The notes under the pieces are model-generated. The model was not told the DNA's origin. It made no database searches and saw only the letters and a program-made list of their open reading frames with translations. The position numbers were made by a program, and so were the translations under genes. From Dehalococcoidia bacterium (GTDB lineage: Bacteria > Chloroflexota > Dehalococcoidia > Lucifugimonadales > CBDFII01), in contig CBDFII010000004.1 of the NCBI GenBank assembly GCA_965248115.1, forward strand, positions 465,999-529,998: DNA of 64,000 nt, written 5' to 3'. Positions 39,947-61,237 of the stretch are shown here, in pieces (within the stretch, counting starts at the first letter, position 1; each line of letters begins with the position of its first letter).

Positions 39947-42150
39947 TCAGGCAGGCATCACCTCGGGCACTTCCTTGTCCCCAACCTGATCCACTTCAAC
40001 GCGAAAGTCGGGCAGCCATTCGAGCCACGAGGGCAGATACCAGTTCCACTTGCCCAGAAGCTTCATGGCGGCAGGCACCAGAACCATCCGGACGATGGTG
40101 GCGTCGAGGAGTATAGCGATCCCCAGGCCGAAGCCCATCTGCTGCAATCCGATTATGTCGCCAGCGGCAAAGGACCAAAACACAGCGACCATGATGAGGG
40201 CCGCTCCAGTGATGAGGCTCCCTGTGGATCGAATGCCGAAAGCCACCGAACCGGTGTTGTCCTGGGTCTGGTCGAAACGCTCCCGGATACGGCTGAGGAG
40301 AAAGACGTGATAGTCCATGGATAGGCCAAACAGGATGGCAAATTGTGTGAATATGCCCAGATCCTCACCCACGCCTTTCTGAAAGACAAGAACCAGGATT
40401 CCATAGGTCGCTCCCACGGAAAGTAGATTCAGTATAATGGCTTTAAGCGGCACGATAATTGATCGGAAAACGAGCATTAGCAAGAAGAAGCTTATGCCCA
40501 GGACGAAAGGGAATATATAGAACACGGCATTGTTGGCCGTGTCGAAGAAGTCCATGTTATATGCGGTCTCACCTGTGACACTTACTGTCGCAGGAACGCC
40601 TGCAAAGGCGGCAGGGACATACTCGCGGCGGAGTCTGCTGATAGCGGCTTTGGACTCATCCTCAGCGGAATCACCAGCTACCGGCACGGTAAGCAGCGCC
40701 ACAGTCCCGGCCTTGTTCACCTCCAGAGGAGCCGCCAAGGAGAATGCGTTGACTATGTCCGTCGCCATGGCCGCCTTTAGGCTCTCGATAGCCCCTTGCA
40801 CAGGCTGAGAGGCAATATCGCCCTCAATGACTATCTGCGCCGGCGTCACATTTCCCGCGGAGAATTTCGCGTCAAGAACATCGAAACCCTGCTTGGACCG
40901 CAGGTCGTCGGGCAGGTGCTGATCCCCTGGAAGCCTGTACTGAGATCGAAGGCGGGATAGGCAGCGGCGATAAGGAGACCTCCGGCCAGCAAAAGGCTAA
41001 TCACAGGCCGTCGCATGACTCCATGAGGAATCCTGTCCCAGAAGCCACCGGCGCTCTGCTCGTCGAATCTGGTCTGTGCCCTACCGATCCAAGGGATAGA
41101 CAGCCGATTGACCCCATCCCCCATGAGACTGAGTACAGCAGGCAGAAGGGTCATGGCGGCCGTTACTGAGGTGATCACCACCACAATAGCGCCGATGCCA
41201 AGACCGATAAAGACGTTGAAGGGTACCAACAACATGCCAATGAGGCCCAGAACCACGGCCATGCCACTGAAGAGGACGGCCCGGGTGGCCGTCCCCCCAG
41301 CCCGCCCGATCGCATCGATCTTCTCCAGGCCCCGGGCCCGCTCCTCCCGGTAACGGGCAACGATAAAGAGGGAGTAGTCGATGCCGACGGCGAGGCCGAT
41401 CATGAACATGATGTTTTGGACGAAAAAGGACAGCGCGAAGGCCTGTCCGACTATGGAGACAATCCCCATTGCAACGATGATGGAGACGACAGCCAGCACA
41501 ATGGGCACCAGCGCTGCCACCAGGGCCCCGAACACCACCACGAGAATGATGAGGGCAGCGGGCACTCCAAAGATCTCTCCCTTCTCGAGTCCCTCCTGAG
41601 CCACCTCCTGAAAGTCCTCACCAACAGTGGCCTGGCCGAATATCAGAACCTCGAAATCGCCCTGCTTATTGGCGTCCACTACCTCGAGGGCCTTGTGGAT
41701 GTTGTCTGTAGCGTCGTCGAAGTCTCCGGCCATAATGAGGGGCATAATGGTGGTGAGGCGGTCCTCTGAGACCAAGAAGGGGGCTCCTGTCTGATAATAA
41801 TTGATAAACGTTCCTTCTCTGATAATCTCGGGCCCCAACGCCGCAACTTTCCCATAGAAAGCCTCAACGAACTCTTGAAAAGCAGGGTCGTCAACGGTGA
41901 GGGTATCCGACTGGACGATGAGCACCTCGTTGGTGCTGAAGGGGAGGCCGCGCAACTCTACTATCAGGTCCACCCCACGCTGGGACTCGGGGGTGTTGGT
42001 GAAGACGAACTAGGTAGTGACAGCATCGTCAAAGAGGCTGGCAACGAGGCCGACAGCCACAACCACAATCAACACCCATATGCTGATGGTGGTCCATGGC
42101 CGTGTCGCGCATCGGCGAGTCAATGATTCAGAAGAGATCCCTAGCGCCAT
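39947..42150 (-). pseudogene. MMPL/RND-superfamily transporter, disrupted (in-frame TAG plus frameshift)
   Basis: An ATG at 42150 with an AGGAGGAGG RBS opens MALGISSESL...DDAVTT-TAG(42010..42012)-FVFTNTPESQRGVDLIVELRG, continuing into track ORF 40846..41973. Near 40915 the frame shifts (GIST | LPDDLRSKQGFDVLDAKFSAGNVTPAQIVIEGD) into ORF 39947..40849. Confidence 0.7.
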
Positions 42151-42366: not shown

Positions 42367-43179
42367 ATGGCAACGTCTATGAAGGGCTCAGAGCATTATG
42401 TATCGCGCCCTGATGGAAGAGTTTACTATTACAAGGTAGGTTTGGGAGAGCCGTTGCTGCTACTCCACCCTATTAATAATAGTGGATGGTGCTGGAGAAA
42501 CGTCATCGACAGGTTGGCAGAGCATTTCACCTGCTATAACGTAGACCTGCCTGGCTTTGACAACTCGGACATCCCCCCTGGTAAGTATTCCGTTGAGGAC
42601 TTCGTCCAGGCTACTGTGGATGTGTTGGAAAGTGCAGGGATCAAGCACACTTCCATCCTAGCAACCCACACGGGTGCAATGGTCTCAGTAGTCCTGGCCG
42701 CCACTTACCCTCAACGGGTGAAAAGGATGGTATTTGATGCTCTGCCCTACTGGAGTGAGGAGGAAGGTCGGGCCTATTTAGAAAAATTCATCAGGCCCCA
42801 GTTCACCGATACGATCTCTTATGATATTCCAGTTGCGCCCATGATTACATGGGAAGAGGCTGCACAGAACAACACCAATCTTACCAAGGAACGCTGGGAA
42901 AAGACCGAGGAAATCAAAGGGAAAAGCCGGCGCTGGACTCGACTTTGCTACGAGGCAATCACCAACTTCAATATGCATGAGTACGGACCCAAGTTGAAGG
43001 TGCCCACCTTAATTATGTTTGGAGATGGAGAGAGGATACGCTTTGGGGAGCAACTGGCCAATAAGGATATAAAGGGCTCAATTCTGCATGTAGTAGAAGG
43101 GTGTCCAGGTGCCGTCCACGAATTTAAACCTGAGGAGTTGCTAAGGCTGGCCTTGCCGTTTCTCCTGAACTCTCAGTGA
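42367..43179 (+). CDS. Alpha/beta-fold protein, atypical (His at the nucleophile-elbow position)
   Basis: Typical alpha/beta-hydrolase layout (LLLLHP...DLPGFD.S...), but the elbow reads ILATHTGAMV instead of G-x-S-x-G. The ATG at 42367 is preceded by GGGGAGG; the track start at 42340 is also possible. Confidence 0.7.
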   Translation: MATSMKGSEHYVSRPDGRVYYYKVGLGEPLLLLHPINNSGWCWRNVIDRLAEHFTCYNVDLPGFDNSDIPPGKYSVEDFVQATVDVLESAGIKHTSILATHTGAMVSVVLAATYPQRVKRMVFDALPYWSEEEGRAYLEKFIRPQFTDTISYDIPVAPMITWEEAAQNNTNLTKERWEKTEEIKGKSRRWTRLCYEAITNFNMHEYGPKLKVPTLIMFGDGERIRFGEQLANKDIKGSILHVVEGCPGAVHEFKPEELLRLALPFLLNSQ

Positions 43180-43222: not shown

Positions 43223-43744
43223 TCAAGACACACCTGCTGCCTGCAGGAACTCCTCTGCCGCCATCACGGTCCCCTGGCGAGGATATATCTTCTCTATCAG
43301 CACTCGGTGCACTTCTGGGTCTGGATCGCCACAGGCATCCCCTATCACCACCAGGTTGTAGTTGATATCGGCAGCCCAGCGTACAGTAGAGAGGACACAC
43401 CCGCTGGTGGATACTCCCATCAGAACCAGGGTATCCTTGCCCATCTCCCGTAGCAGCACATCCAAACCAGTAGTGGAGAAGGGGCTCGTCCTGGTCTTGG
43501 CAATTATACGATCCCCAGGGGATGGCGCCACGCCGGAGTGTATCTCTGTTCCAGAGGAAGGAGTCTCAAAGCGGCCACCCCGGTGGGTAACGTAGATTAC
43601 TGGAATCCCCACCTGCCGGGCCCCTTCTAGCACTTGGGATGCCCTCTGGATCACTTCCTTAGACACATTCTTCACAATGTCGTTCTGGTAGTCCATTATA
43701 ATGACCACTGTCCTGTCGCGATCCAGAGTCTGCTGCTGTGTCAT
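43223..43744 (-). CDS. Isochorismatase-family cysteine hydrolase
   Basis: 173 aa with V.I.MDYQNDIV, a conserved Lys region and the catalytic Cys context LVLMGVSTSGCVLSTVR. Confidence 0.8.
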   Translation of the reverse strand: MTQQQTLDRDRTVVIIMDYQNDIVKNVSKEVIQRASQVLEGARQVGIPVIYVTHRGGRFETPSSGTEIHSGVAPSPGDRIIAKTRTSPFSTTGLDVLLREMGKDTLVLMGVSTSGCVLSTVRWAADINYNLVVIGDACGDPDPEVHRVLIEKIYPRQGTVMAAEEFLQAAGVS

Positions 43745-49790: not shown

Positions 49791-49968
49791 TAGGTTGCCT
49801 CCTAACGAAGAGAATTTGGGGCTATGATACATCAAGAGCGACTTCAGATAAATTCCTTGAGATACCATGGGACGTAAGGATTGACAGAGAATAGAGCTGC
49901 GAGTACCTTTAAGGTACCGTGTGGGCCGTCGAAACGAATCGGTACAGGCTAAAAGGGGAGGTACTAAG

Positions 49969-51375
49969 ATGGCCAACAATGATATAGCCTTGATGGCACA
50001 CCTGATGCGCCGAGCTGGCTTCGGAGCAAAGCGTGACGAGTTGGAGGAGCGAGTGGCCAAGGGGTACGAAGCCACGGTGGAGGAGCTGCTGCATCCTGAA
50101 AACGCGTCCCCAGCGGACGAGCATATCCTCCAAAGGTACCACCCACCTGCTATGTTTCCCGGTAGTGTTTCCCCTACTTACAACATGCACTGGATGTTCT
50201 ACATGCTAAATACGGAACGCCTCCTAGAGGAGAAGATTGCCCTGTTCTGGCATCAGGTGTTCGCCACCGGAAACGCCAAAGTGGACAATGGCATCGACAT
50301 ACTGAAACAAATAGCCATGTTCCGGCGCTACGGATTGGGTAGCTTCCGGGAGCTGCTGACCGAGCTAGCTAAAAACCCCGCTATGATCTTTTGGCTGGAC
50401 AATAACGAGAACCACAAGTACGCGGTCAACGAGAACTGGGGCCGAGAGCTGCTGGAGCTGTTCTCCATGGGTGTGGGCAACTACACCGAGGTGGATGTAA
50501 GAGAGGCCTCCCGGGCCTTCACAGGCTGGACCATGATCGCCAGGGTGCCCCGTTACCCCTATTCCCGCTCCCCCTGGCCAGGATTCGAGTATAAAGTGGA
50601 GGACCATGACTACGCCGAGAAAAGGTTTTTGGGCCACGAAGGCCGTTTCAACGGCGAGGATATTATCGACATCATCGTCCAGCAGCCCGCCTGCGCACGC
50701 TTTATCGCTCGCCACCTCTACAACTTCTTCGTGGCCGACGAGCCACAGGTACCGAGCTGGTCCATCGATCCACCTAGAGATCCCGAAGCTCTAAACACCC
50801 TGACGACGGCTTTCATCGAGTCTAATTACGAGATTCGGGCAGTGCTACGTACTCTTTTCAACTCCGACTTCTTCAAAGAGGCTCGCTTTGCCAAGGTGAA
50901 GAGTCCCACCGAGGTAGCTGTAAGCACCTATAAGCTAGTAGGCGGGCATAACTTTCCCAGGCCAGGCTTCGGAGAGCTGTCCATGCAACCCACCTACATG
51001 GGCCAGGAGATCCTCAACCCACCCAGTGTAGAGGGCTGGCATACAGGCCAGGAGTGGATAAACAGCGGCTCCCTAATGAGCCGTGTCAATTTTGTCGCCG
51101 ATCTGGTGGGTGACATCAGCCTACCAGGCGTCCAATCCATCATTAACCGGCTTAGAATCCAGGGAGAGCTCTCACCCGAGACGCTGGTCGATGGCTGTTT
51201 GGATATGCTAGGCCCATTGGATGTAGAGCCTAAGACCCGCCAACACTTGATCGAGCAAGCTACAGAGGGTAGCATCCTGCACTGGGACACCGAAGAGGAA
51301 GTTAGTGATTCCGAAAAGAAGATCGCTGAGATGCTGCAGCTGATAGTCGCTACCAGGGAATACCAGTTCGCTTAG
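49969..51375 (+). CDS. DUF1800 family protein
   Basis: MANNDIALMAHLMRRAGFG..., LFWHQ, NENWGRELLELFSMG and SRAFTGW. The ATG at 49969 is preceded by GGGGAGG. Confidence 0.85.
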   Translation: MANNDIALMAHLMRRAGFGAKRDELEERVAKGYEATVEELLHPENASPADEHILQRYHPPAMFPGSVSPTYNMHWMFYMLNTERLLEEKIALFWHQVFATGNAKVDNGIDILKQIAMFRRYGLGSFRELLTELAKNPAMIFWLDNNENHKYAVNENWGRELLELFSMGVGNYTEVDVREASRAFTGWTMIARVPRYPYSRSPWPGFEYKVEDHDYAEKRFLGHEGRFNGEDIIDIIVQQPACARFIARHLYNFFVADEPQVPSWSIDPPRDPEALNTLTTAFIESNYEIRAVLRTLFNSDFFKEARFAKVKSPTEVAVSTYKLVGGHNFPRPGFGELSMQPTYMGQEILNPPSVEGWHTGQEWINSGSLMSRVNFVADLVGDISLPGVQSIINRLRIQGELSPETLVDGCLDMLGPLDVEPKTRQHLIEQATEGSILHWDTEEEVSDSEKKIAEMLQLIVATREYQFA

Positions 51376-51393
51376 GGAATAGGGGCGAAAAGG

Positions 51394-52413
51394 ATGCTTA
51401 CAACTATAGCGGCAGGACGAGTATACAATTTTAGTCATGCAGTGGGTCGCAACCAGCAGACGGGCACGGGGTTTCATTGGCCAACAGCGCTAGCTCTAGG
51501 CCCGGACGGGGTAGTATACGTAGTCAGCCGGGGTAATGAAACCAACTTCGGTACACGAGTGAGCAAGCTCACCTTGTGGCCTCCTGGCGAGGAAGAATTA
51601 ATATGTGAGTTCGGTACTTATGGTGAGATGGATGGGCAGTTGATTTGGCCTACCTCTTTGACCCTGGACATGGAAGGAAACCTCTACGTCTCTGACGAGT
51701 GGCTTAACCGAATTTCCATCTTTGATCAGGATGGCACTTTCCTGGAGAAATGGGGCACATCGGGAACTAGCATCGGAGGGTTAAATGGTCCCTCTGGCTT
51801 AGCTTTGGATAAGGAAGAAAACCTATACGTTGTCGACAGTTTTAGCAATCGTGTCCAAAAGTTCACCAAAGACGGCACCTTTTTGGCTAAGTTCGGCGAA
51901 GAGGGGAGCGGTGAAGGACAGTTCGACATGCCGTGGGGCATTACCATCGACAACAAGGGCGATGTGTACGTGGGCGATTGGAAAAATCACCGAGTGCAAA
52001 AGTTCTCCTCCGAGGGCACCTTCCTGACGAGCTTCGGCACATTCGGGACAGGAGTAGGAGAGCTTAACCACCCAACCGATGTGGCCGTTGACGATGAGGG
52101 GGATGTATACGTGTGCGACTGGGATAACGACCGTGTCCAGATATTTGCGCCCGATGGAGATGTCATCACATCCCTCATTGGAGATGCTCAGCAGCTCTCC
52201 AAGTGGGGCAAGGAAAAACTGGATGTGAATCCAGACATAGTTATGGCTCGACGGAGGCTCAAGAGCCTTGAACCTGAATGGCGGTTCTGCCATCCTTCGG
52301 GAGTGGCCTTTGACCAGACTGAGAACCGCATCGTAGTGGTTGACTGTCAACGGAGCCGCCTCCAGATATACATCAAGGATAAGGACTACGTGGACCCCCA
52401 GTTCAACTTGTAG
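51394..52413 (+). CDS. NHL-repeat beta-propeller protein
   Basis: 339 aa. Starts 18 nt after the DUF1800 stop. Closely resembles 859..1980 (N-terminal GRVYNFSHAVGR, C-terminal RLQIYIKDKDYVDPQFNL). Confidence 0.8.
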   Translation: MLTTIAAGRVYNFSHAVGRNQQTGTGFHWPTALALGPDGVVYVVSRGNETNFGTRVSKLTLWPPGEEELICEFGTYGEMDGQLIWPTSLTLDMEGNLYVSDEWLNRISIFDQDGTFLEKWGTSGTSIGGLNGPSGLALDKEENLYVVDSFSNRVQKFTKDGTFLAKFGEEGSGEGQFDMPWGITIDNKGDVYVGDWKNHRVQKFSSEGTFLTSFGTFGTGVGELNHPTDVAVDDEGDVYVCDWDNDRVQIFAPDGDVITSLIGDAQQLSKWGKEKLDVNPDIVMARRRLKSLEPEWRFCHPSGVAFDQTENRIVVVDCQRSRLQIYIKDKDYVDPQFNL

Positions 52414-52450: not shown

Positions 52451-54099
52451 GAGCCTGTCTCAGAAGTCTGATCTGGCAATGGGTATGTCGTCAGGTGTAG
52501 CTTCGAAGCGAGATCAATTGGGGGGATACTGATATGCCGCTTCGACCGATGGGCCGAGAGCAGATGTGGATGTTGCCGCCGACGCTTGACGAGTTGTTGC
52601 CGTTGGATCATCCGGCGCGGTTCGTCGCCGAGTTCGTCGATGCTCTGGGTCGAGATGCCTGGGCGGAGCTTGGCGTGGACATAGACGGGGAGGTCCTGGG
52701 AGCGCCAGCCTACCATCCCCGTGCACTGTTGAGTGTATGGCTGTACGGCTTCATGACCGGTGTGCGCTCCTGCCGGAAGCTGGAGGCGGCCTGCCGCGAC
52801 CAGATTCCGTACCTGTGGTTGACCGGGTGGCAGCATCCCGATCACAACACTCTGTGGCGGTTCTACAAAGGGCATCGGCACGCCATGAGGAAGCTGTTCG
52901 AGCGCTCGGTGCGCACGGCAGTGGCCATGGCGTTGGTGGATCTAGCGGTGCAGGCCGTGGACGGGACGAAGGTGGTAGCCAACGCCTCAGTGAACAGGAG
53001 CTATGATGCTGTGGGCCTGAGTGGTCTGTTGGAGCGTCTCGAGAAGGCGATAGCCGACCTTGAGGCACAGAACGAAGGGGGAGAGGATGCTCCTGTTGCC
53101 CATCTGCCAAAAGAGTTAGCCGACAAGGAGGTCTTGAGGGACCGGGTGAGGCAGGCGATGGCCGACCTCGGGAGTCAGAAGCGCCACAAGCGGATCAACC
53201 TGACCGACCCGGAGGCCCGACTGATGAAGGGCAGGCAGGGGATCGTGGCCGGCTACAACGCCCAGGCTATGGTCTCACCCATGGAGATCGATGGAGAAGC
53301 GGCCGGCATGGTGGTCACAGCCGTGGACGTGGTTGATGCGGCCAATGACAATGCCCTGCTGGTGCCGATGGTCGAGCAGGCGGAGGAGACGACCGGGACG
53401 AGGGTGCCGATGACATTGGCCGACGCTGGCTACTTCGCCGTGAGCCACCTAGCGGAGTGCGACCGGCGAGGCCAGCAGGTGGTGGTGTCAGAAGCACGGC
53501 AGCGGTTCCTCACAGACGCGTATCACAAGGACCGATTCACCTATGACGAGCAAAGCGACAGTTTTACGTGTCCACAGGGACGGAGGCTCAAGTTCCTTCG
53601 CATCCAACATACGAATGGAGTTCCGCTGCGTCTGTACCGGGCCTCTGGAGCCGTCTGCCAGGCGTGCCCGGCCTTCGGAGTCTGTACGAGAGCCCGCGAG
53701 ACCGGCCGCAGTCTGGCGATAGGGCCCCATGACGGAGTGCTACGCCGCCACCGCGCCTGGAGGACCACGTTAGCCGCCAAAGAGGCGTACCGGCTGAGAA
53801 AGCAGCTGGTCGAGCCGGTCTTCGGAATCATCAAGGAACAACAGAGGGCACGTAGGTTCCTGCTGCGTGGCCTCGCCAACGTGGCGGCCGAGTGGACCAT
53901 GTTGGCCACCGCCTTCAACCTGCGCACCCTCTACCGGGTGTGGAGCTCCTCCCTCCATCTTCAACCCTCTACCTGACGGTCTGGAACCTTGTCATGTCTC
54001 GTGAGCTGAGGCCATTGACAGCTATCCCTCACCCCATCGTCTGCGTAATACTTCGCGTCGGAGTACGCCTGCCAACGGACGTCATTCTGAGACAGGCTC
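52451..54099 (+). mobile_element. IS element copy 2 (IS1182/IS5-like), 1649 bp, flanked by a 4-bp direct repeat TGAT
   Basis: Same 15-bp terminal inverted repeats as copy 1. TGAT occurs at 52447..52450 and 54100..54103. Inserted 37 nt downstream of the NHL gene stop. Confidence 0.85.
52534..53976 (+). CDS. IS1182/IS5-family DDE transposase
   Basis: 480 aa. Identical to the copy-1 protein except for one residue (A versus V in GYN(A/V)QAM). Confidence 0.85.
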   Translation: MPLRPMGREQMWMLPPTLDELLPLDHPARFVAEFVDALGRDAWAELGVDIDGEVLGAPAYHPRALLSVWLYGFMTGVRSCRKLEAACRDQIPYLWLTGWQHPDHNTLWRFYKGHRHAMRKLFERSVRTAVAMALVDLAVQAVDGTKVVANASVNRSYDAVGLSGLLERLEKAIADLEAQNEGGEDAPVAHLPKELADKEVLRDRVRQAMADLGSQKRHKRINLTDPEARLMKGRQGIVAGYNAQAMVSPMEIDGEAAGMVVTAVDVVDAANDNALLVPMVEQAEETTGTRVPMTLADAGYFAVSHLAECDRRGQQVVVSEARQRFLTDAYHKDRFTYDEQSDSFTCPQGRRLKFLRIQHTNGVPLRLYRASGAVCQACPAFGVCTRARETGRSLAIGPHDGVLRRHRAWRTTLAAKEAYRLRKQLVEPVFGIIKEQQRARRFLLRGLANVAAEWTMLATAFNLRTLYRVWSSSLHLQPST

Positions 54100-54177
54100 T
54101 GATATATACTAATACTCGAACTCGGTTTTCAGCAGATTTGGTTTATAAGATATGAAGACCCTTAGCGAAGTCATTCC

Positions 54178-54540
54178 ATGACGTCACAGCCTCCGCCAGA
54201 CATAGGGGGTTTGAGCCGAACTCAGAAGCGAATCGACTGGCTTCACTACATCATAGTTATCATCGTGTTTGGCATCACTGGTTTTCTATCAGTGCTGTTC
54301 AGCAGGTTTCTACTAAATGGGGTTCTAAATCTACAAGGTGAAGTGTGGTCTGGCCCATGGTCATATCGCATCACCTATCTTTTACTAATTCCAGCATCTT
54401 ACTCAGTAATGCTCGTGGTGGTGGGCACACTCTTCGGCAAGCACAGCTATTTCAAACAACGGGTCCTGCGTATGTGGAGCCGCATTCTGCCAAAGCGCAT
54501 GTATACCCTCCGACGGCGTTCGAATGCTAAGAGCGGGTAA
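54178..54540 (+). CDS. Small membrane protein, unknown function
   Basis: 120 aa with two clear hydrophobic helices (IIVIIVFGITGFLSVLF and ITYLLLIPASYSVMLVVVGTLF) and a basic C-terminal tail. Confidence 0.55.
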   Translation: MTSQPPPDIGGLSRTQKRIDWLHYIIVIIVFGITGFLSVLFSRFLLNGVLNLQGEVWSGPWSYRITYLLLIPASYSVMLVVVGTLFGKHSYFKQRVLRMWSRILPKRMYTLRRRSNAKSG

Positions 54541-54692
54541 TCACTAAGCAAGTCGGACGGCCAATTCTCCCAGCACTTCTTTCCTTGGTAGGCTTGCTAT
54601 CACTCCCTCGTACGGGATTTGACAAACCAGTCAAAGAGAGCTACATTCTCCCTACTACCTATGAAGAAGCCTACCTCACGGAGGGATGCAAA

Positions 54693-56456
54693 ATGAATTC
54701 CAACAAGATTTTGAAAATACTGTTGCCCTTGATAGCGTTGACCGCCTTAGTAGCCATGGCGTGTGGTGCGGCAGCTACGGCTACACCAATTGTCATCGAG
54801 AAAGAGGTCATTAAAGAGATCCCGGTAGAGGTGATTGAAGAGGTAGAAGTCATAAAAGAGGTGCCGGTGGAAAGAGAGGTGATTAAAGAGGTAGAGGTCA
54901 TAAAAGAGGTAGAGGTGATAAAAGTTGTGATCGCTACCCCTACACCAACGCCTTCTGGCCCGCCTGCACCAGCAAGGGTAGGTGTGTTCCGGGTGGCCTA
55001 TGGGCCTTTCAACGCCCTAGGAGTGACACCGTGGGAAGGTACCGTAGGGCTTTCGCAGATGGGACAGATGTACGACGCCGCTAATATAGAAGTCCGAGAT
55101 GACAGAGGCGTGCCAGTGCGTCATGTGCCAGGCCTTCTCCGCGAATGGGAGGTGATTGATGGAGGGAAGCGCATCAGAGCGAAGGTAGTGGAGGGGGTAC
55201 AGGCCCAGGGTGGATGGGGTGAATATACTGCGGAGGACTTCGTCTGGCTTCACTCCTTCCTTCGGGAGATTACAAAGTGGAATCCAAAGAGAGAATGGGA
55301 TAACTGGGACATAAAAGCAGAACAGACGGGACGTTATGAGTTTGAGGTATTCCGTGGCGGCGGAGAGAAGATGCCCGTGTTCGACTGGGTGTCAAATATG
55401 GGGCAATGGGTTTATCCCCTAGTTAAGAAGCACGTTGAGACCGGGGGCCTGGATGCGATCAGAACCGACCCCATAGGGACGGGACCCTTCCGCAACGTCA
55501 AATGGGATTCGGCACTCCAGATCTACGAGGCGGTACCAAATCACTGGCGTTCACAACCTGTCATGGACCGCCTGGAATATGTCCACGTCCGAGAGAGCTT
55601 GACTCGGGTAGCCATGGCGCTGACGGGGGCGGCTCAGATGACCTCTGCCGTTCTATTGGAGCACGCTTTGGATGCGGAGGAACGGGGCTTTCCCGTAACG
55701 TCATACCCGGGCCAGTTCAACGTGCGGTTGATTTTTGGTGGTCTTCAGACGATAGAGCACAGCAATGACCCGTGGGCCGACCCGAAAGTGCGTAAGGCCA
55801 TAGCCTTGGCCATTGACAAGCAGGCCATGATAGACGAGCTATGGGGTGGGTTTGCAGTGCCTCTCTCCACCCAATGGCAAACGAAATTTCCAACACCAGC
55901 TCGAACACTAGAGCCTTACCCTTACGACCTAGAGGAAGCCCGTAGGCTACTGGCTGAGGCCGGGTTTCCCAACGGATTTGCCGTTGAGGTGCCAATGATA
56001 GTCATCCGTGGTACACCCAGGGTACCCCTCGAGCACAACGCCCTTATCTTGGCCATGGAGAATCTTGGGCTAAAGGTTAAGGGCACTATCGGCGAATGGT
56101 CTTCTTTCAAGCCCAAGTGGAACGTAGGGGATACGGCAGGGATAATGTTTGCCATGTCGGTAACCACTTTCGCTAGCGAACCCCGAGAATGGGGTTGGTA
56201 TCAGCCCGGCAAGCGCAACAACTTTTCGGATCAATTTATGGCGGATATCATCCCCGGTATCAATGAAACCTATGTCGAAAACCGGAAGGAATACGAGCGC
56301 CTCGGAGCAGAAGCGATGCAGCACCTCTATGACGTGTACGCTACAGTTCCTCTATACACCACCCCGGAGCTTGAGGTGCTGGCACCCGGATTCAGTTGGA
56401 AGTACCACATGAATCCCCAGAGGCTGTATCTGGACCAACTTGAGTATAACCCATAA
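54693..56456 (+). CDS. ABC transporter substrate-binding lipoprotein, family 5 (peptide/nickel type), no cognate permease nearby
   Basis: The ATG at 54693 is preceded by GGAGGG. Signal peptide with lipobox LVAMAC, then an acidic (EVIKE)n tether and a large SBP_bac_5-like body (P..W......YEAVPNHWR, ...AID...). Confidence 0.75.
   Translation: MNSNKILKILLPLIALTALVAMACGAAATATPIVIEKEVIKEIPVEVIEEVEVIKEVPVEREVIKEVEVIKEVEVIKVVIATPTPTPSGPPAPARVGVFRVAYGPFNALGVTPWEGTVGLSQMGQMYDAANIEVRDDRGVPVRHVPGLLREWEVIDGGKRIRAKVVEGVQAQGGWGEYTAEDFVWLHSFLREITKWNPKREWDNWDIKAEQTGRYEFEVFRGGGEKMPVFDWVSNMGQWVYPLVKKHVETGGLDAIRTDPIGTGPFRNVKWDSALQIYEAVPNHWRSQPVMDRLEYVHVRESLTRVAMALTGAAQMTSAVLLEHALDAEERGFPVTSYPGQFNVRLIFGGLQTIEHSNDPWADPKVRKAIALAIDKQAMIDELWGGFAVPLSTQWQTKFPTPARTLEPYPYDLEEARRLLAEAGFPNGFAVEVPMIVIRGTPRVPLEHNALILAMENLGLKVKGTIGEWSSFKPKWNVGDTAGIMFAMSVTTFASEPREWGWYQPGKRNNFSDQFMADIIPGINETYVENRKEYERLGAEAMQHLYDVYATVPLYTTPELEVLAPGFSWKYHMNPQRLYLDQLEYNP
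54798..54926 (+). repeat. Short-period coding repeat (gag gt. .a. a.a gag gt.) encoding the (E/V)VIKE tether
   Basis: EKEVIKEIPVEVIEEVEVIKEVPVEREVIKEVEVIKEVEVIKVV is read directly from the DNA. Confidence 0.8.
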
Positions 56457-56474
56457 GGTGGTTGAGTCTGCTCG

Positions 56475-57302
56475 ATGAGGAGAGCCTACGCCGACACGCC
56501 CGAAGGGCAGGTACATTACGTAACTGAGGGATCGGGGGAGCCCTTGCTCCTCCTTCATGAGAGCCCCCGCTCATGGGCTACGTATGTTCGTATGATCCCG
56601 CTCCTGGCCAAGACTCATCGGGTCATTGCTATGGACAACCTCGGCTTCGGGGACTCGGACCCGCCTTCACAGGCCTATCAGGTAGAGGATTACGCTGAGA
56701 ATGTTGCCCATTTCCTAGATTCATTGGGCATCGCCCAAACGAGCGTTATGGGCGATCATACTGGGGCATCTATAGCCGTTGAAGTGGCAGTCCGATGGCC
56801 AGAGCGGGTCCGGCGGCTGGTCTTAGCGGGGTTGCCCTTTTGGATAAGCAAGGAGGAGCGCCTTGCCCGCCTAGAGCAGGAAAAAACAAGCAATTCGGGT
56901 AGCATCGACGTAGACGGGGCCCATTGCACCAGGTTGTGGCAGCGCGCACTGGCAAAAGTGCCAAGAGAAGCGAATGGCGAGGTCTCTCAAGACGACCTAG
57001 AGTTTGTAGCTGGTTACACCTTGGATGGCCTCAAAGCGGGGCCCTACAACAAAGAGACCCATATGGCCGTTTACAGCTACGACCCAGAGCCCCGCCTGCC
57101 GCTCATTCAGGCGCCAACCCTGGTGGTTGATGTAACTGGCGAGGGACCTACACAATACACCAAACGAGGCTCCCAGGTGAAGGCGCTTATTCCACAAAGC
57201 AGTCTGGTCACAATTGAAGGTGGAGGATCGCGGCTAAAAATTATTAGGGCTACGGAGCTCAGCGAAACCATGCTCCAGTTTTTAGATAGTTCTACACTGT
57301 AA
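56475..57302 (+). CDS. Alpha/beta-fold protein, atypical (G-D-H-T-G elbow)
   Basis: 275 aa with an alpha/beta-hydrolase layout. However, HESP replaces the HG oxyanion motif and His95 (56757..56759) sits at the nucleophile position. Confidence 0.75.
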   Translation: MRRAYADTPEGQVHYVTEGSGEPLLLLHESPRSWATYVRMIPLLAKTHRVIAMDNLGFGDSDPPSQAYQVEDYAENVAHFLDSLGIAQTSVMGDHTGASIAVEVAVRWPERVRRLVLAGLPFWISKEERLARLEQEKTSNSGSIDVDGAHCTRLWQRALAKVPREANGEVSQDDLEFVAGYTLDGLKAGPYNKETHMAVYSYDPEPRLPLIQAPTLVVDVTGEGPTQYTKRGSQVKALIPQSSLVTIEGGGSRLKIIRATELSETMLQFLDSSTL

Positions 57303-57468
57303 TAACGACCCATCCACTACTTTGTGGGCGTAATAGCTAGTCTCTACTCCATCCAACTCTTTGCCAGTTGAATTGGTATCCTTTTACGGATAAATATTGC
57401 TCGCTAAACATATCCATAAGATCGTATTATCACCCAGTGTCCATCTTTAGGAGATTGGCAAGAAGGAT

Positions 57469-58281
57469 ATGATGGGGCTTGATGTCAGGTTTGGCTATGC
57501 AGATACTAACCTCGGACAGGTCCACTACCGCGAGGTGGGCTCCGGTCCACCAGTAGTCCTATTCCATGAAAGCCCCTTCTCTGGGGCAGTATTTGAGGCC
57601 GTTTTGCCCATGTTGGGCCGACGGGTTCGGGCCATTGCCCCAGACACCCCAGGCTACGGCGCATCTCCCCCACCACCCAGCCCCCTCTCCATTGGTGGCT
57701 ATGCCGAACGGGTGGCCCTTTTCCTGGATGCACTGGGGCTGGAGCATGTCGTGCTGGTTGGTAACCACACAGGTGGGGCCATCGCAATCCAGCTTGCTGT
57801 AGACATGCCAGAGCGAGTGACAGCGCTTATAATCACAGGAGCTCTTCTATTTAACGAGGAGGAGCGAAGGGATAGGTTGGAGAACTATCTAGAGCCGTTT
57901 AACCTATCTCCGGATGGAGGGCACTTGGCTTGGCTGTGGGCTCGCCTCCGCCGAGGAAATGGTCCTGATGCCCCGGTGGAACTGCTCCACTTTTTTGCTG
58001 CCCAGTTCCTCCAAACAGCATCTCGATACGACTGGGCCTTTAGGGCAGCATATGAATTTGACACGGAGCGCCTATTGCCTAAGATAACCTGCCCGACCCT
58101 CTTCCTCATCACCGCAGGTGACAGGTTATCGAACAAAAACGAACGTGCAGTAGCACTGACCTCCCGTGCGGAGGGACGGGTCGTGGATAAACCTTATGGA
58201 CAATTTGCAACTCGAGATCCGGAGGAGTACTCCAATGAGGTTTTGTCCTTCCTAGGCCGTGTAGGATATCTCACCTCGTAA
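57469..58281 (+). CDS. Alpha/beta-fold protein, atypical (G-N-H-T-G elbow)
   Basis: 270 aa, paralog of 56475..57302 (GQVHY.E.GSG.P..L.HESP.S). His100 (57766..57768) sits at the nucleophile position. Confidence 0.75.
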   Translation: MMGLDVRFGYADTNLGQVHYREVGSGPPVVLFHESPFSGAVFEAVLPMLGRRVRAIAPDTPGYGASPPPPSPLSIGGYAERVALFLDALGLEHVVLVGNHTGGAIAIQLAVDMPERVTALIITGALLFNEEERRDRLENYLEPFNLSPDGGHLAWLWARLRRGNGPDAPVELLHFFAAQFLQTASRYDWAFRAAYEFDTERLLPKITCPTLFLITAGDRLSNKNERAVALTSRAEGRVVDKPYGQFATRDPEEYSNEVLSFLGRVGYLTS

Positions 58282-58340
58282 CGAAGGAGCTTGGTAACTT
58301 CATCGCATCCCTCGACAAACCTTTGCCCAGGAGACAACAT

Positions 58341-59378
58341 ATGGCCCCTGCCGACATTACCAATAACAAAAGAGTATCCATCTGCTTCGGCAGCCGCATA
58401 CTATGGTCTGACGAGGAGCTTATCAAGGTAGCCCAGGCCGCCGAGTCCCTGGGCTATGAGACCATCTTTATGGCCGAGTCCTGGGGACGCGACGTTTTTA
58501 CCCTTCTAACCCTGCTGGCTCTAAACACCAAACGTATCAAACTGGCGACGGGCATCGCCGGCATTTGGGCCCGTTCACCGACCATGACGGCTCAGACAGC
58601 CGCCTCGCTGGACAACATGTCCGATGGTAGGTTCATACTGGGCCTGGGTACAGGGAATCCCCTCGTAGTCGAGGAGTGGCACGGTCAGGAGTTCAAAAGG
58701 CCGCTGCAGCGTACCCGTGAATTCACCGAGATTGTGCGCATGGTCATAAGCGGCCAGCGCCTCGACTACCAAGGGAAGCTCTTCAAGTTCAATGGGAGCT
58801 TCCAGCCCGTGAACAAGGGTCCTCGCGACCGCATCCCCGTTTACATCGCCGCCATCGGGCCCAGACTCACAGAACTGGCCGGAGAGATAGCCGATGGGTG
58901 GATGCCTGTCTATGCGGTTCTCCCCAAGTTCCACATCCTTAAGGGCCACCTGGACATAGGAGCCCAACGGGCAGGCCGTGACCCCAGCGCCATAGACATT
59001 GCCCTTTGCATCGTCACATGTGTTGACGAGGATGAGGAGTGGGCCCGGCTTCAATTCAGGGAACGCCTTGCCCTGCGGGTAGGAGGCATGGGAGACCGAT
59101 ACCACGACTTGATGTGTCGCTCCGGCTTCAAGGAGGAGGCCGATGGAATCAGGGCCACCTGGACCCAGGGAGATCATAAGAGAGCCGCCGCCCTTGTGAC
59201 CGATGAAATGGTTGACAACATGACTATCATAGGTAAGCCTGAGCTATGCCGTGAGCGACTGGAGACCTGCTACTCAGTTGGCGTAAATATGCCCATTCTC
59301 TCCTTCCTGGATCACCTCCCCTTAAAAGTGGTCTATCGGAGCCTGGAGGCCCTAGCGCCGCTGCCTACACGGGCGTAA
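58341..59378 (+). CDS. LLM-class F420/flavin-dependent oxidoreductase
   Basis: GYETIFMAESWGRD, R.KL.TGI and F.LGLGTG are typical of the luciferase-like family. The ATG at 58341 is preceded by AGGAGA and is preferred over the track start at 58323. Confidence 0.85.
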   Translation: MAPADITNNKRVSICFGSRILWSDEELIKVAQAAESLGYETIFMAESWGRDVFTLLTLLALNTKRIKLATGIAGIWARSPTMTAQTAASLDNMSDGRFILGLGTGNPLVVEEWHGQEFKRPLQRTREFTEIVRMVISGQRLDYQGKLFKFNGSFQPVNKGPRDRIPVYIAAIGPRLTELAGEIADGWMPVYAVLPKFHILKGHLDIGAQRAGRDPSAIDIALCIVTCVDEDEEWARLQFRERLALRVGGMGDRYHDLMCRSGFKEEADGIRATWTQGDHKRAAALVTDEMVDNMTIIGKPELCRERLETCYSVGVNMPILSFLDHLPLKVVYRSLEALAPLPTRA

Positions 59379-59498
59379 AATTAAACGTTCGTGTTTGCCC
59401 AAAAGGAGGCTGAGCCCATCCTCCTCACCATCGACGCTACCAGCTAGGGACTCATTTCTGTGGAACTACACCAACGTCCTCGCGGCCCCCTCCTTACG

Positions 59499-60716
59499 AT
59501 GCTGCAAGATGGCAAGTTCCGTGCCATCTTGTACGTAACCTCTTTGAATTTCTTCACACGCCGCTTTGAGCTGCTGGTCCTAAGCATATTTATCCTCGAA
59601 GTTACCAATTCCCCATTGCAATTGGCGTTGGTCTGGGTATTCCAAAACCTACCCAGGCCTTTAGTATCCCCACTATCCGGCGTCATCGCCGACCGCTTCA
59701 GCCGACACCGCATCCTGGTGGTGGCACAAAGTCTCAACGCGTCCATCGCCACTAGCGTCCTCTTGCTCCTCGTAAGTGGCCTCGTCCAGCCGTGGCACAT
59801 TTTCGCCGCGGCGTTCCTGCAAGGGGTCACACAATCTCTTGAAGACCCCTCACGACGTATGGCGATCCTAGATATCGTGGGCCAAGGCCGGCTAGTCAAT
59901 GCCATGTCAATGGAACTGATGGGGCAACTCTCCGGGAAAATGACCGGTCCCATCATAGGAGGGATTCTAATAGCGCTGTTCACATTTAAAGCAGCCTACG
60001 GATTTGTGTTGGTAGTGCATTTGATATCCCTGGGACTGCTACTGGGCTTGGTGAGGATTCCGCGCTATAGCGGCACCATCACGGTGGAATCGATATGGAG
60101 AGGCCTGGGTCTAGGAGTACGATATGCCCTGCACAATCGAATGGTCTTTGGGGTACTCTACATCACTATCATAATGAATGCCCTCGCCTTTCCGGTACAG
60201 CAGTTTATCCCAATCATTGGACGTGACCTTCTAGGAGTAGGGCCTGCGTTGGTGGGACTCCTCGTAGCAGCAGATGGCTTTGGCATGCTGGTCTCAGCGG
60301 TAATACTGGCTTCGAGCAGGAATCTCAGATACCACGGACGGCTATTCGTGGTGGGTACGCTGACAATGCTGGCCACGGTTTCACTGTTCGTGTGGTCGCC
60401 CTGGTACGCCCTATCCTTTGCTTTCTTGACCATAGGGGGCATCGGGCAGGCAGGTTTTGGCACCATGCAAAGCTCGATCACCATGCTCTCCACACCCCAG
60501 GAGATGCGGGGCAGAATGTTGGGACTGCTTAGCTTCTGCATCAGCGTAGGGGTCCCCTTGGGAACCCTGGAGATAGGGCTGGTGGCTGTTGCCTTCAGCA
60601 CCCAGTGGGCTATATCGGTAAACGTCTTAGCTGGGCTACTGTTGATCTTGCCATCGCTGATGCTAACACCGCTGATCTGGCAGCCGTCGAGCGAGCCCCT
60701 GCCTCAAAGGTCTTGA
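59499..60716 (+). CDS. MFS transporter
   Basis: About 405 aa, polytopic, with a G.IADRFSRHRIL motif in loop 2-3. The start (GTG 59460 or ATG 59499) is uncertain. Confidence 0.75.
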   Translation: MLQDGKFRAILYVTSLNFFTRRFELLVLSIFILEVTNSPLQLALVWVFQNLPRPLVSPLSGVIADRFSRHRILVVAQSLNASIATSVLLLLVSGLVQPWHIFAAAFLQGVTQSLEDPSRRMAILDIVGQGRLVNAMSMELMGQLSGKMTGPIIGGILIALFTFKAAYGFVLVVHLISLGLLLGLVRIPRYSGTITVESIWRGLGLGVRYALHNRMVFGVLYITIIMNALAFPVQQFIPIIGRDLLGVGPALVGLLVAADGFGMLVSAVILASSRNLRYHGRLFVVGTLTMLATVSLFVWSPWYALSFAFLTIGGIGQAGFGTMQSSITMLSTPQEMRGRMLGLLSFCISVGVPLGTLEIGLVAVAFSTQWAISVNVLAGLLLILPSLMLTPLIWQPSSEPLPQRS

Positions 60717-60727
60717 CGCACACCTTT

Positions 60728-60904
60728 TTATAGACCAATGGGTCTGTTGGCCTCTATCCCATCCATCTTAGGCATTTGAGCATTCATAAAGATGACACTA
60801 GGCTGCAACTGCTCAGCTTTGCCCACAGCTTGAGAGGATGCACGGTCATACCAATGGGGGATGGCTGCATCGGTCAAAGGGACGATAGAATCGTCGTACC
60901 TTTG
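60728..60904 (-). pseudogene. Remnant of a response-regulator receiver (REC) domain
   Basis: A 58-codon open frame reads YDDSIVPLTDAAIPHWYDRASSQAVGKAEQLQPSVIFMNAQMPKMDGIEANRPIGL*. This is a REC-like pattern (DD...; P.VIFM-D/N-..MP.MDG.EA) but is truncated, has no usable start, and has N at the phospho-acceptor position. Confidence 0.4.
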
Positions 60905-61237
60905 TCATGACTAAAATCGGTAGCCTGACCGATGACGCAGAACAGACACCAAGGGTATCGTACTTCACAAGCATTCACGAAAACTTGTCCAGGAGGATAT
61001 CGTGCAAATATGGCTCCCCGTCAAGAAGGCTTATCAGGCGCGGGATGTCCCGATGGACGAACCTATTATCCAGGCTTGCCGCATACCTTTGTATAGACCT
61101 GTCGGCCCGTTGGCCTCTAGGGTATTTAGCCTACCCGCGATGAGGCCTGGGGCCCATGTCAATTAAGGAACGATGCAGTATAATGTTCCACCATTGGAAA
61201 TACACTTAGAAAAAAAACAGGGAGAGAGGAGCGTTTA

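What the first reader, a model, noticed from the sequence alone, without database searches (positions are those of the whole stretch)
56475..58281. Alpha/beta-fold paralogs with His at the nucleophile elbow (G-x-H-T-G) and HESP instead of the HG oxyanion motif
I aligned the three paralogs (42367..43179, 56475..57302, 57469..58281) by eye to the standard alpha/beta-hydrolase pattern (..LVGHSMGG.IA...A...P.RV..LVL). This puts His (codons at 42667, 56757 and 57766) where the Ser/Asp/Cys nucleophile should be: ATHTGA, GDHTGA, GNHTGG. The oxyanion motif HG is HES/HPI, and I cannot find the usual C-terminal catalytic His in its normal context. Conservation of the HTG elbow across three diverged copies argues against random decay. 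It points to a subfamily with different chemistry (cofactor-independent oxygenase/lyase, metal site) or a binding role. They sit among LLM oxidoreductases and transporters.
Basis: partly seen in the sequence, partly recalled or inferred. Interest (0 to 1): 0.55.

Follow-up and report, generated by a model that had tools for sequence, protein, structure and literature searches.

The report
Alpha/beta-fold proteins with elbow histidine
Three genes in this window encode alpha/beta-hydrolase-fold proteins that carry a histidine where the catalytic serine or aspartate normally sits, and they belong to a large, widespread, uncharacterised bacterial subfamily whose chemistry is probably not that of a classical hydrolase.

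Summary
Three ORFs are alpha/beta-hydrolase-fold proteins: W1 56475-57302, W2 57469-58281 and W3 42367-43179. Sequence, profile and AlphaFold2 evidence all place a His (codons 56757, 57766, 42667) at the strand-turn-helix nucleophile elbow. The HG motif is HESP in W1 and W2 and HPIN in W3. W1 and W2 lack the catalytic His after strand 8.

This is not decay. The x-H-T-G elbow defines a large subfamily found in Chloroflexota, Actinomycetota, Alpha-, Gamma- and Deltaproteobacteria, Acidobacteriota and Entotheonella, and every source name is generic. The elbow His is present in 65-86% of domains, depending on the sample. It co-varies with the residue replacing the HG glycine, with the acid after strand 7 and with a cap Tyr/His. 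A cap motif, D-G-x-H-x4-W, is even more conserved.

Members often occur as tandem genes or as two-domain fusions. They sit in catabolic operons next to Cupin_7, Amdase-like, CoA-transferase III, RutB/BiuH-like amidohydrolase and F420-type LLM genes.

Most likely these are non-covalent general-base enzymes with a rewired active site, but no function is demonstrated. The nearest precedent is E. coli RutD, and these proteins are not RutD. Verdict: a new variant of a known kind, of moderate interest.

The parts
56475..57302 (+). W1, a 275-aa alpha/beta-hydrolase-fold protein with the HESP and GDHTGA motifs
   Evidence: ORF. Pfam Abhydrolase_1 at E 2.4e-16. AF2 model with pLDDT 94.6. Foldseek TM about 0.8 to enol-lactonase, esterases and haloperoxidases.
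56556..56567 (+). W1 H28-E29-S30-P31, the loop after strand 3 that replaces the HG / HGxP oxyanion motif
   Evidence: Aligned to the HGxP-type loop of epoxide hydrolases and dehalogenases. Glu or Gln at position 29 co-varies with the elbow residue.
56751..56768 (+). W1 nucleophile elbow G93-D-H95-T96-G97-A98, with the His95 codon at 56757-56759
56913..56939 (+). W1 cap motif D147-G148-A-H150-x4-W155
   Evidence: This is the most conserved family signature. G148 is present in 209 of 211 domains, W155 in 202 and H150 in 182.
57141..57143 (+). W1 Glu223, the acid after strand 7 (Asp in most relatives)
   Evidence: It aligns with the catalytic Asp of Est1. Asp occupies this column in 88% of domains with the elbow His and in 46% without it.
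57469..58281 (+). W2, a 270-aa paralog with HESP and GNHTGG. The His100 codon is at 57766-57768. Gln245 (58201-58203) sits at the canonical catalytic-His column.
   Evidence: In the clade, HESP is present in 110 of 118 and the elbow His in about 114 of 118.
42367..43179 (+). W3, a 270-aa paralog (alternative GTG start at 42340) with HPIN and ATHTGA. The His101 codon is at 42667-42669. A conserved His251 (43117-43119) follows strand 8.
54585..56456 (+). Family-5 solute-binding protein whose stop lies 18 nt upstream of the W1 start
   Evidence: Pfam SBP_bac_5. The SBP-W1-W2-LLM order is conserved in the relative L091, where W1 is 83% identical.
58323..59378 (+). Luciferase-like (LLM) oxidoreductase of the F420-dependent class, 41 nt downstream of W2
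   Evidence: Pfam Bac_luciferase. NCBIfam TIGR04024 and TIGR03559 are the best matches, not RutA.
59460..60716 (+). MFS transporter downstream of the LLM gene
   Evidence: Pfam MFS_3 and MFS_1.
43223..43744 (-). Isochorismatase-family (RutB/BiuH-like) amidohydrolase, convergent with W3
   Evidence: Pfam Isochorismatase. NCBIfam gives weak RutB and BiuH matches. The same family recurs in 20 of 91 related loci.

Best explanation
W1, W2 and W3 belong to an uncharacterised subfamily of alpha/beta-hydrolase-fold proteins in which the classical nucleophile-His-acid triad has been rewired.

A histidine sits on the nucleophile elbow, followed by a near-invariant Thr-Gly. The glycine of the HG(xP) loop is replaced by Glu or Gln. 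The acid after strand 7 is kept. In the W1 and W2 clades the catalytic His after strand 8 is lost. The helical cap carries a conserved D-G-x-H-x4-W motif.

I infer that the elbow His, oriented by Glu/Gln29 and/or Asp/Glu223, acts as a general base or general acid. On this reading there is no covalent acyl- or alkyl-enzyme intermediate. The backbone NH groups of Thr96 and Ser30, and perhaps the Thr96 hydroxyl, would stabilise an oxyanion or enolate. The cap residues would bind a small polar substrate such as a carboxylate, amide, ureide, lactone or CoA thioester.

The proteins work in catabolic operons, often as paired paralogs or as two-domain fusions.

Shown here: the fold, the residue positions, the conservation, the co-variation and the gene contexts. 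Inferred only: catalytic competence, the role of each residue, the substrate, and any W1-W2 complex.
For: Fold and elbow position.

Conservation:
- Among 235 homologues, the elbow His is present in 203, Thr or Ser at the next position in 227, Gly97 in 232, and Asp or Glu at 223 in 212.
- The elbow His is present in about 114 of 118 W2-clade and about 45 of 49 W3-clade sequences.
- The family occurs in at least eight phyla, including cultured Actinomadura, Nonomuraea, Micromonospora and Variovorax davisae.

Active-site-like co-variation in 357 non-redundant domains:
- Presence of His95 associates with Gln or Glu at 29, Tyr or His at 196, Asp at 223 (88% against 46%) and residues of the loop after strand 8.
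- Arg or Lys at position 95 occurs only with Glu at 29, in 11 of 11 cases.

Enzyme-like gene context:
- The SBP-W1-W2-LLM block is conserved.
- W2-type genes lie directly downstream of a Cupin_7 gene in Actinomadura and Chloroflexota. The two genes overlap in Actinomadura.
- HHTG-type genes are followed by an Amdase-like gene in 24 of 83 loci across four bacterial classes.
- CoA-transferase III, amidohydrolases and RutB/BiuH-like amidohydrolases recur nearby.

Precedents for alpha/beta-fold enzymes that work without an elbow nucleophile, such as dyad lyases, MKS1 and RutD: PMC11878206 and PMC3531081.
Against: - No member has been characterised, and every source name is generic.
- The elbow His is not invariant. 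The closest W1 paralogs carry Arg, Lys, Met or Ser. Only 138 of 211 domains among the representatives have His, and 11 of 70 fusions have none.
- The cap motif and Thr96 are more conserved than the His. They could be structural, for example Thr as a helix N-cap.
- Position 29 is free in many fusion domains that keep the His.
- Gene contexts are heterogeneous, and these genomes are rich in LLM and hydrolase paralogs. Some adjacency may therefore be chance.
Confidence: 0.5

Rival explanations
1. These are pseudoenzymes or binding subunits. On this view the canonical site is plugged by a His-Glu pair (or an Arg-Glu salt bridge), and the proteins act as ligand-binding, regulatory or scaffolding partners. 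The partner could be a catalytic paralog, with W1 pairing with W2 or one fusion domain pairing with the other.
For: - Arg or Lys replaces His only when Glu is at position 29, which looks like a structural salt bridge.
- Met, Leu and Phe variants exist.
- Half of the top representatives are two-domain fusions. In 35 of 70 only one domain has His, and in 11 of 70 neither does.
- The cap motif is conserved even in domains with degenerate elbows.
- Non-catalytic alpha/beta-fold proteins are well known, for example the neuroligins (PMC3531081). NDRG proteins are a further example from my own knowledge, not from a source read here.
Against: - The elbow His, the acid after strand 7 and pocket residues are co-conserved, which is the pattern expected of a working site.
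- W2- and W3-clade orthologues keep the His in more than 90% of cases.
- The genes are embedded in, and translationally coupled within, catabolic operons.
- No clean split-gene relationship exists between W1/W2 and the N- and C-terminal halves of the fusions.
Confidence: 0.25
2. This is a metal-dependent site. His95, together with His150 and Asp147 from the cap and/or Glu29, would chelate a divalent metal that does the chemistry (hydrolysis or oxygenation).
For: Several conserved His, Asp and Glu residues lie in positions expected to line the active-site cavity. W2-type genes are paired with cupins, which are typically metalloenzymes.
Against: - No geometry could be measured.
- Glu29 is Gln in the largest clade and is free in fusions.
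- In the W2 clade His150 is Gln in 57 sequences and Asp147 varies.
- I know of no metal-dependent alpha/beta-hydrolase-fold precedent (own knowledge), and none was found in the literature searches.
Confidence: 0.08
3. The His or the adjacent Thr is a covalent nucleophile. His95 would form an acyl-, phospho- or alkyl-imidazole intermediate. Alternatively Thr96 (Ser in some relatives) would be the real nucleophile on a register-shifted elbow, with His95 as its base.
For: - Thr or Ser at position 96 is present in 97% of sequences, more than the His.
- GVHSGA variants exist.
- The strained G-x-Nu-x-G turn is retained.
- Glu29 or Asp223 could polarise the imidazole.
Against: - Ungapped alignments to many solved enzymes, and DSSP of two high-confidence models, put His and not Thr at the turn.
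- With Thr as the nucleophile, the -2 and +2 positions would not be small residues.
- No alpha/beta-hydrolase with a His or Thr nucleophile is listed in the 2024 classification.
Confidence: 0.12
4. This is a trivial explanation. The three genes would be decaying hydrolase paralogs, or a by-eye misalignment would hide a normal Ser or Asp nucleophile.
For: The genomes carry many paralogs and IS elements.
Against: - The ORFs are intact.
- The motif is conserved across phyla.
- Profile and structure evidence agree on the residue at the elbow.
Confidence: 0.03

Closest known systems
E. coli RutD (PDB 3V48), the putative aminoacrylate hydrolase of the Rut pyrimidine pathway
   Same: - It is an alpha/beta-hydrolase fold without Ser, Asp or Cys at the elbow.
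- ESTHER 2012 reports that a His substitutes the canonical Ser (PMC3531081, citing Knapik et al. 2012).
- Its biochemical role is still unproven (PMC8113886).
- It is encoded with an LLM enzyme (RutA) and an isochorismatase-family amidohydrolase (RutB). LLM and RutB/BiuH-like genes also recur near this family.
   Different: - hhalign places RutD His87 of G-H-A-L-G on family position 94 and Ala88 on the family His95, so the His is in a different column.
- RutD keeps the canonical Asp and His after strands 7 and 8, whereas W1 and W2 lack that His.
- The NCBIfam RutD model scores 52, 38 and 27 bits against a cut-off of 238.5.
- The neighbouring LLMs here are of the F420 class, not RutA.
- RutD lacks the HxxP loop and the family's cap motif.
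Epoxide hydrolases, haloalkane dehalogenases and fluoroacetate dehalogenases (Asp-nucleophile alpha/beta hydrolases with an HGxP loop)
   Same: - They are the best single-sequence PDB matches for all three paralogs.
- They share the N-terminal 'hY..G.G.P.lLlH..P' segment and the H-x-x-P loop.
- They have a helical cap after strand 6, with residues that bind the leaving group.
   Different: - The nucleophile Asp is replaced by His.
- The HG glycine is replaced by Glu or Gln.
- The water-activating His after strand 8 is lost in W1 and W2.
- The NCBIfam dehalogenase models score far below their cut-offs.
Alpha/beta-fold enzymes that work without an elbow nucleophile, such as MKS1 decarboxylase (Ala at the elbow) and the D/E-H dyad carboxy-lyases
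   Same: They show that the fold supports non-covalent acid-base chemistry when the nucleophile is absent (PMC3531081; PMC11878206).
   Different: These enzymes keep the His after strand 8 as the base. Here the only conserved His in W1 and W2 sits on the elbow itself. There is no detectable specific sequence relationship.
Cofactor-independent dioxygenases HOD and QDO
   Different: From my own knowledge, HOD and QDO retain a Ser at the elbow and use the His-Asp dyad with the His after strand 8. W1 and W2 lack that His. No specific similarity was seen in any search.
NDRG / Ndr-family non-catalytic alpha/beta-fold proteins
   Same: There are weak Pfam Ndr matches around the elbow (E about 0.003-0.006). 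Degenerate fusion domains carry G-x-G-x-G-A elbows like those of NDRG proteins (the NDRG motif is from my own knowledge).
   Different: Scores of 16 bits are below the cut-off of 23.3. NDRG proteins have Gly, not His, at the elbow and are eukaryotic.

Membership tests
Alpha/beta-hydrolase fold superfamily (Pfam Abhydrolase_1, PF00561) | Profile match above the gathering score | tested here: met
   Scores of 60.6, 58.6 and 66.7 bits against a cut-off of 25.8.
Alpha/beta-hydrolase fold superfamily (Pfam Abhydrolase_1, PF00561) | Eight-stranded beta-sheet core with a strand 5-turn-helix C elbow and a cap insertion | tested here: met
   AF2 models with pLDDT 94.6 and 95.3 show the expected order of strands and helices. 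Foldseek TM is 0.74-0.83 to many alpha/beta hydrolases.
Classical alpha/beta hydrolase with a nucleophile-His-acid triad | Ser, Cys or Asp at the elbow | tested here: not met
   His occupies that column in W1, W2 and W3.
Classical alpha/beta hydrolase with a nucleophile-His-acid triad | Catalytic His in the loop after strand 8 | tested here: not met
   In W1 the column is variable. In W2 Gln245 aligns with the 3om8 His. W3 has a conserved His251 nearby, so the result is inconclusive for W3 only.
Classical alpha/beta hydrolase with a nucleophile-His-acid triad | Acidic residue after strand 7 | tested here: met
   Glu223 in W1 and Asp in W2 align with the Est1 Asp. Asp or Glu occupies this column in 212 of 235 homologues.
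RutD (NCBIfam TIGR03611) | Score above the equivalog cut-off of 238.5 bits | tested here: not met
   Scores of 51.9, 37.8 and 27.1 bits.
RutD (NCBIfam TIGR03611) | G-H-A-L-G elbow with the canonical Asp and His retained | tested here: not met
   hhalign puts RutD His87 on family position 94 and Ala88 on His95. The RutD 'GGH' His has no counterpart in W1 or W2.
RutD (NCBIfam TIGR03611) | Encoded in a rut operon with RutA (an FMN-dependent LLM) and RutB | tested here: not met
   The neighbouring LLMs are of the F420 class (TIGR04024, TIGR03617, TIGR03564). The isochorismatase-family genes score 58-140 bits against a RutB cut-off of 378.
Epoxide hydrolase / haloalkane dehalogenase / fluoroacetate dehalogenase | Asp nucleophile in sm-x-D-x-sm | tested here: not met
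   His aligns with that Asp.
Epoxide hydrolase / haloalkane dehalogenase / fluoroacetate dehalogenase | HGxP oxyanion loop | tested here: not met
   W1 and W2 have H-E-S-P and W3 has H-P-I-N. The His and, in W1 and W2, the Pro are kept, but the Gly is lost.
Epoxide hydrolase / haloalkane dehalogenase / fluoroacetate dehalogenase | NCBIfam equivalog score | tested here: not met
   The best score is 84 bits against a cut-off of 466.
Cofactor-independent dioxygenase (HOD/QDO type) | A His-Asp dyad with the His after strand 8 acting as the base | tested here: not met
   There is no conserved His after strand 8 in the W1 and W2 clades. O2 dependence is not testable here.
Ndr family (PF03096) | Profile match above the gathering score | tested here: not met
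   Scores of 16.0, 15.8 and 16.6 bits against a cut-off of 23.3.

The most novel reading that the evidence does not exclude
The x-H-T-G proteins would be a previously unrecognised catalytic class of the alpha/beta-hydrolase fold. In this class the catalytic histidine has moved onto the nucleophile elbow and is paired with the strand-7 acid and/or a Glu or Gln from the former oxyanion loop. The proteins would work as paired or fused domains. They would carry out a non-hydrolase step, such as a lyase, isomerase, decarboxylase or direct-water amide or lactone cleavage. That step would follow cupin or oxidoreductase enzymes in the breakdown of nitrogen-rich or recalcitrant organic matter by marine Chloroflexota, sponge symbionts and actinomycetes.
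Probability: 0.3. Interest if true: 0.75.

Novelty: new variant of a known kind. Interest (0 to 1): 0.55.

Why it matters
The alpha/beta-hydrolase fold is one of the largest enzyme superfamilies. Its catalytic repertoire is taught as Ser, Cys or Asp on the elbow plus a His-acid pair. A 2024 classification lists only these and a few dyads (PMC11878206).

A large cross-phylum family with a conserved elbow His would add a new active-site architecture. The profile found up to about 3,300 clusters at 50% identity with E <= 1e-30, although some canonical hydrolases are included in that count.

It would also correct the blanket annotation 'alpha/beta hydrolase / pimeloyl-ACP methyl ester carboxylesterase'. 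These proteins would not be detected by serine-hydrolase activity probes.

The family is expanded in Chloroflexota of the type implicated in oxidation of recalcitrant dissolved organic matter, and in sponge symbionts. Knowing its reaction would fill a step in those predicted pathways.

Cultured hosts make this testable. Examples are Actinomadura sp. WMMA1423, Nonomuraea and Variovorax davisae.

Tried and rejected
- A literature search for 'GHHTG' returned only an unrelated complement-receptor paper. Searches on nucleophile elbow, histidine and pseudoenzyme found no description of this family. One SAR202 search added nothing specific.
- The Knapik et al. 2012 RutD paper is not held. The RutD comparison therefore rests on ESTHER's sentence, my recollection of the abstract, and hhalign against the 3V48 sequence.
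- The idea of a Rut-like module, with LLM as RutA, was weakened. The LLMs are of the F420 class and the isochorismatase genes are far below the RutB cut-off.
- I looked for a Cupin_7 gene in the window and found none.
- I tested whether W1 and W2 correspond to the N- and C-terminal halves of the fusion proteins (a Rosetta-stone relationship). There is no clean mapping, and both halves are slightly closer to W2.
- The first genome-contig scan with W1 peptides found nothing. Alignment A2 was too diverse for that tool. The second scan, with a tighter alignment, worked, but it selects for GHHTGA, so motif counts in those loci are biased.
- Exact-sequence look-ups of P0001 and P0124 were not on record.
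- Promoter, terminator and Rfam scans of 53900-61000 gave nothing above background.
- An elbow-centred PDB search found only Ser, Asp or Ala-mutant elbows among the alignments shown.
- Model coordinates are not exposed, so active-site distances could not be computed.
Full report
**1. What is in the sequence**

Three intact ORFs encode proteins of 270-275 aa: W1 (56475-57302, +), W2 (57469-58281, +) and W3 (42367-43179, +, with an alternative GTG start at 42340). They are 31-36% identical to one another.

All three match Pfam Abhydrolase_1 well above its gathering score. No NCBIfam model reaches its cut-off. The best matches are haloalkane dehalogenase, enol-lactonase, HsaD and RutD models at a fraction of the required score.

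**2. Which residue is on the elbow**

Ungapped HMMER alignments to solved enzymes place the His on the catalytic nucleophile:
- W1 GDHTGA aligns with Alp1U GHDIGS.
- W2 GNHTGG aligns with 3om8 GLSLGG and with ancestral dehalogenase VHDWGS.
- W3 ATHTGA aligns with fluoroacetate dehalogenase GHDRGA.
- A 40-sequence family profile aligns its G-x-h-t-G with GVSMG of Est1, GNSIG of Est816 and GNSFG of CumD.

AlphaFold2 models built on family alignments are confident. In W1 (pLDDT 94.6) the strand is 89-94, His95 is in coil and the helix is 96-107. In W3 (pLDDT 95.3) the strand is 95-100, His101 is in coil and the helix is 102-113.

Foldseek finds only generic alpha/beta hydrolases, with TM about 0.8 and about 20% identity. 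A PDB search with an elbow-centred consensus returned, in the alignments shown, only Ser, Asp or Ala-mutant elbows.

The HG motif is H-E-S-P in W1 and W2 and H-P-I-N in W3.

The family profile has no conserved His at the canonical column after strand 8. In W2 a Gln aligns with the 3om8 catalytic His.

The acid after strand 7 is retained.

W3 differs. It and about 43 of 49 relatives keep a His (W3 His251) just after strand 8. The W3 clade may therefore have His(elbow)-His-acid.

**3. It is a family, not decay**

W1 has 594 homologues at E <= 1e-5. W2 has 312 and W3 has 50 at E <= 1e-10.

In 235 aligned homologues the counts are:
- elbow His in 203;
- Thr or Ser at the next position in 227;
- Gly97 in 232;
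- His28 in 231;
- Asp or Glu at 223 in 212.

The commonest versions are H-Q-[ST]-P with G-H-H-T-G-[AG], and H-E-S-P with G-[VN]-H-T-G.

A profile search of 1.84 billion representatives gave 3,322 clusters at E <= 1e-30. This is an upper bound, because good canonical hydrolases would also reach that score.

A scan of one genome per species with two family peptides found 197 relatives. They come from Dehalococcoidia and other Chloroflexota, Alpha-, Gamma- and Deltaproteobacteria, Entotheonella, Acidobacteriota, Actinomycetota, Myxococcota and Variovorax davisae. W2 relatives include cultured Actinomadura, Nonomuraea and Micromonospora.

All source names are generic.

**4. What else is conserved**

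A cap motif, D-G-x-H-x4-W, is the strongest signature. G148 is present in 209 of 211 domains, W155 in 202 and H150 in 182. It persists in domains whose elbow is degenerate.

The elbow His is less universal. It is present in 75% of 357 non-redundant domains and in 65% of the domains in the representative set. The nearest W1 paralogs have Arg, Lys, Met or Ser at that position.

The variation is structured:
- Arg or Lys occurs only when position 29 is Glu, in 11 of 11 cases. This implies a side-chain contact between the former oxyanion loop and the elbow.
- Presence of the His associates with Gln or Glu at 29, Tyr or His at 196, Asp at 223 (88% against 46%) and residues of the loop after strand 8.

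That is the pattern of a functional site that is kept as a unit or lost as a unit.

**5. Architecture and context**

Half of the 140 new representatives are proteins of about 560 aa with two family domains. Of these 70 fusions, 24 have His in both domains, 35 in one and 11 in neither. Summed scores favour such proteins in the ranking.

Tandem genes are frequent, including three in a row in L016, L037, L050 and L080. The W1-W2 pair fits this habit. However, W1 and W2 do not map cleanly onto the N- and C-terminal halves of the fusions.

In the window the order is SBP_bac_5, then W1 (18 nt after the SBP stop), W2, an F420-class LLM oxidoreductase and an MFS transporter. A transposase lies upstream. 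The SBP-W1-W2-LLM block is conserved in a relative with 83% identity. W3 is convergent with an isochorismatase-family gene.

Elsewhere:
- W2-type genes follow a Cupin_7 gene directly. The two overlap in Actinomadura. CoA-transferase III, LLM and RutB/BiuH-like genes lie alongside.
- HHTG-type genes are followed by an Amdase/EutA-like gene in 24 of 83 loci from four bacterial classes.
- W1-type paralogs sit next to double-domain CoA-transferase III, amidase, Amidohydro_2 and thiolase genes.

These are catabolic operons. No single partner is universal.

**6. Mechanism**

My best reading, at about 0.5 confidence, is an active enzyme with a rewired site. The elbow His would serve as a general base or acid, oriented by Glu/Gln29 and/or the strand-7 acid. 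The backbone amides of Thr96 and Ser30, and possibly the Thr hydroxyl, would stabilise a negative charge. The cap D/H/W and Tyr/His196 would bind a small polar substrate. No covalent intermediate would form.

Only the positions, the conservation and the contexts are shown here. The roles of the residues are inferred.

The rivals are:
- a pseudoenzyme or partner subunit (0.25);
- a covalent His or Thr nucleophile (0.12);
- a metal site (0.08);
- a trivial artefact (0.03).

Without coordinates I could not measure the geometry that would separate these.

**7. Comparison with what is known**

A 2024 survey of the superfamily lists Ser, Asp or Cys at the elbow and a few nucleophile-less dyads, with no His (PMC11878206).

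ESTHER 2012 records one precedent. [quoted passage not shown] The function of RutD is still unproven (PMC8113886).

I retrieved the 3V48 sequence and aligned it to the family profile. Four differences follow:
- RutD His87 falls on family position 94 and Ala88 on the family His95.
- RutD keeps the canonical Asp and His.
- The RutD model scores 27-52 bits against a cut-off of 238.5.
- The neighbouring LLMs are of the F420 type, not RutA.

These proteins are therefore not RutD. They resemble it in being non-canonical alpha/beta-fold proteins encoded with LLM and isochorismatase-family enzymes.

By sequence they are nearest to the HGxP / Asp-nucleophile group of epoxide hydrolases and dehalogenases, but they fail its defining features.

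**8. Verdict**

The feature is real, conserved and widespread, and I found no description of it in the literature searched. It is a new variant within a very well-known fold, with no function demonstrated.

Interest is moderate at 0.55. It would be surprising to alpha/beta-hydrolase specialists if the elbow His proves catalytic, and it is directly testable in cultured hosts. Non-canonical and inactive members of this superfamily are common, however, and the RutD precedent exists.

Noticed in passing
window 54585-56456 (+): The family-5 solute-binding protein has an N-terminal repetitive acidic stretch (EVIKE / EVIEE / EVIKEV units). A Pro-Thr linker follows, before the binding domain (translation).
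   Followed up: no
window 52534-53976 (+); L091 11488-13878: A DDE transposase lies between the NHL-repeat gene and the SBP-W1-W2-LLM block. The relative with 83% identity has no IS at that place. It has other IS copies downstream of the LLM that interrupt the MFS gene.
   Followed up: partly
window 39947-40849 and 40846-41973 (-): Two same-strand ORFs overlap by 4 nt. The downstream one is an MMPL-family transporter fragment of 375 aa. This may be a split or frameshifted MMPL gene.
   Followed up: no
window 57303-57468: A 166-nt AT-rich spacer lies between W1 and W2 in a window of 55% GC. Its length is conserved (170 nt) and it is weakly alignable in L091. There is no Rfam match and no consensus promoter or terminator.
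   Followed up: partly
window 49921-52413; L091 3181-5633; L094 2005-5876: DUF1800 (with DUF1501 in L094) and an NHL/SGL beta-propeller gene recur immediately upstream of W1-type paralogs in three loci.
   Followed up: no
L084 6141-7816; L085 6102-7822; L086 5111-6801: A Cupin_7 gene of about 290 aa directly precedes W2-type genes in Actinomadura sp. WMMA1423 and in Chloroflexota-like contigs. The two genes overlap by 4 nt in Actinomadura. No NCBIfam model matches the cupin.
   Followed up: partly
P0241-P0379 (representatives); L016, L037, L050, L080: Half of the best representatives are two-domain fusions of this family, often with one His-bearing domain and one degenerate elbow (G-R-G-x-G-A). 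Several genomes carry three family genes in a row.
   Followed up: partly
L039 6001-7538 and 23 other loci: An Amdase/EutA-like (Asp/Glu-racemase superfamily) gene starts within a few bases of the stop of HHTG-type genes. This is seen in Gamma-, Delta- and Alphaproteobacteria and in Dehalococcoidia.
   Followed up: partly
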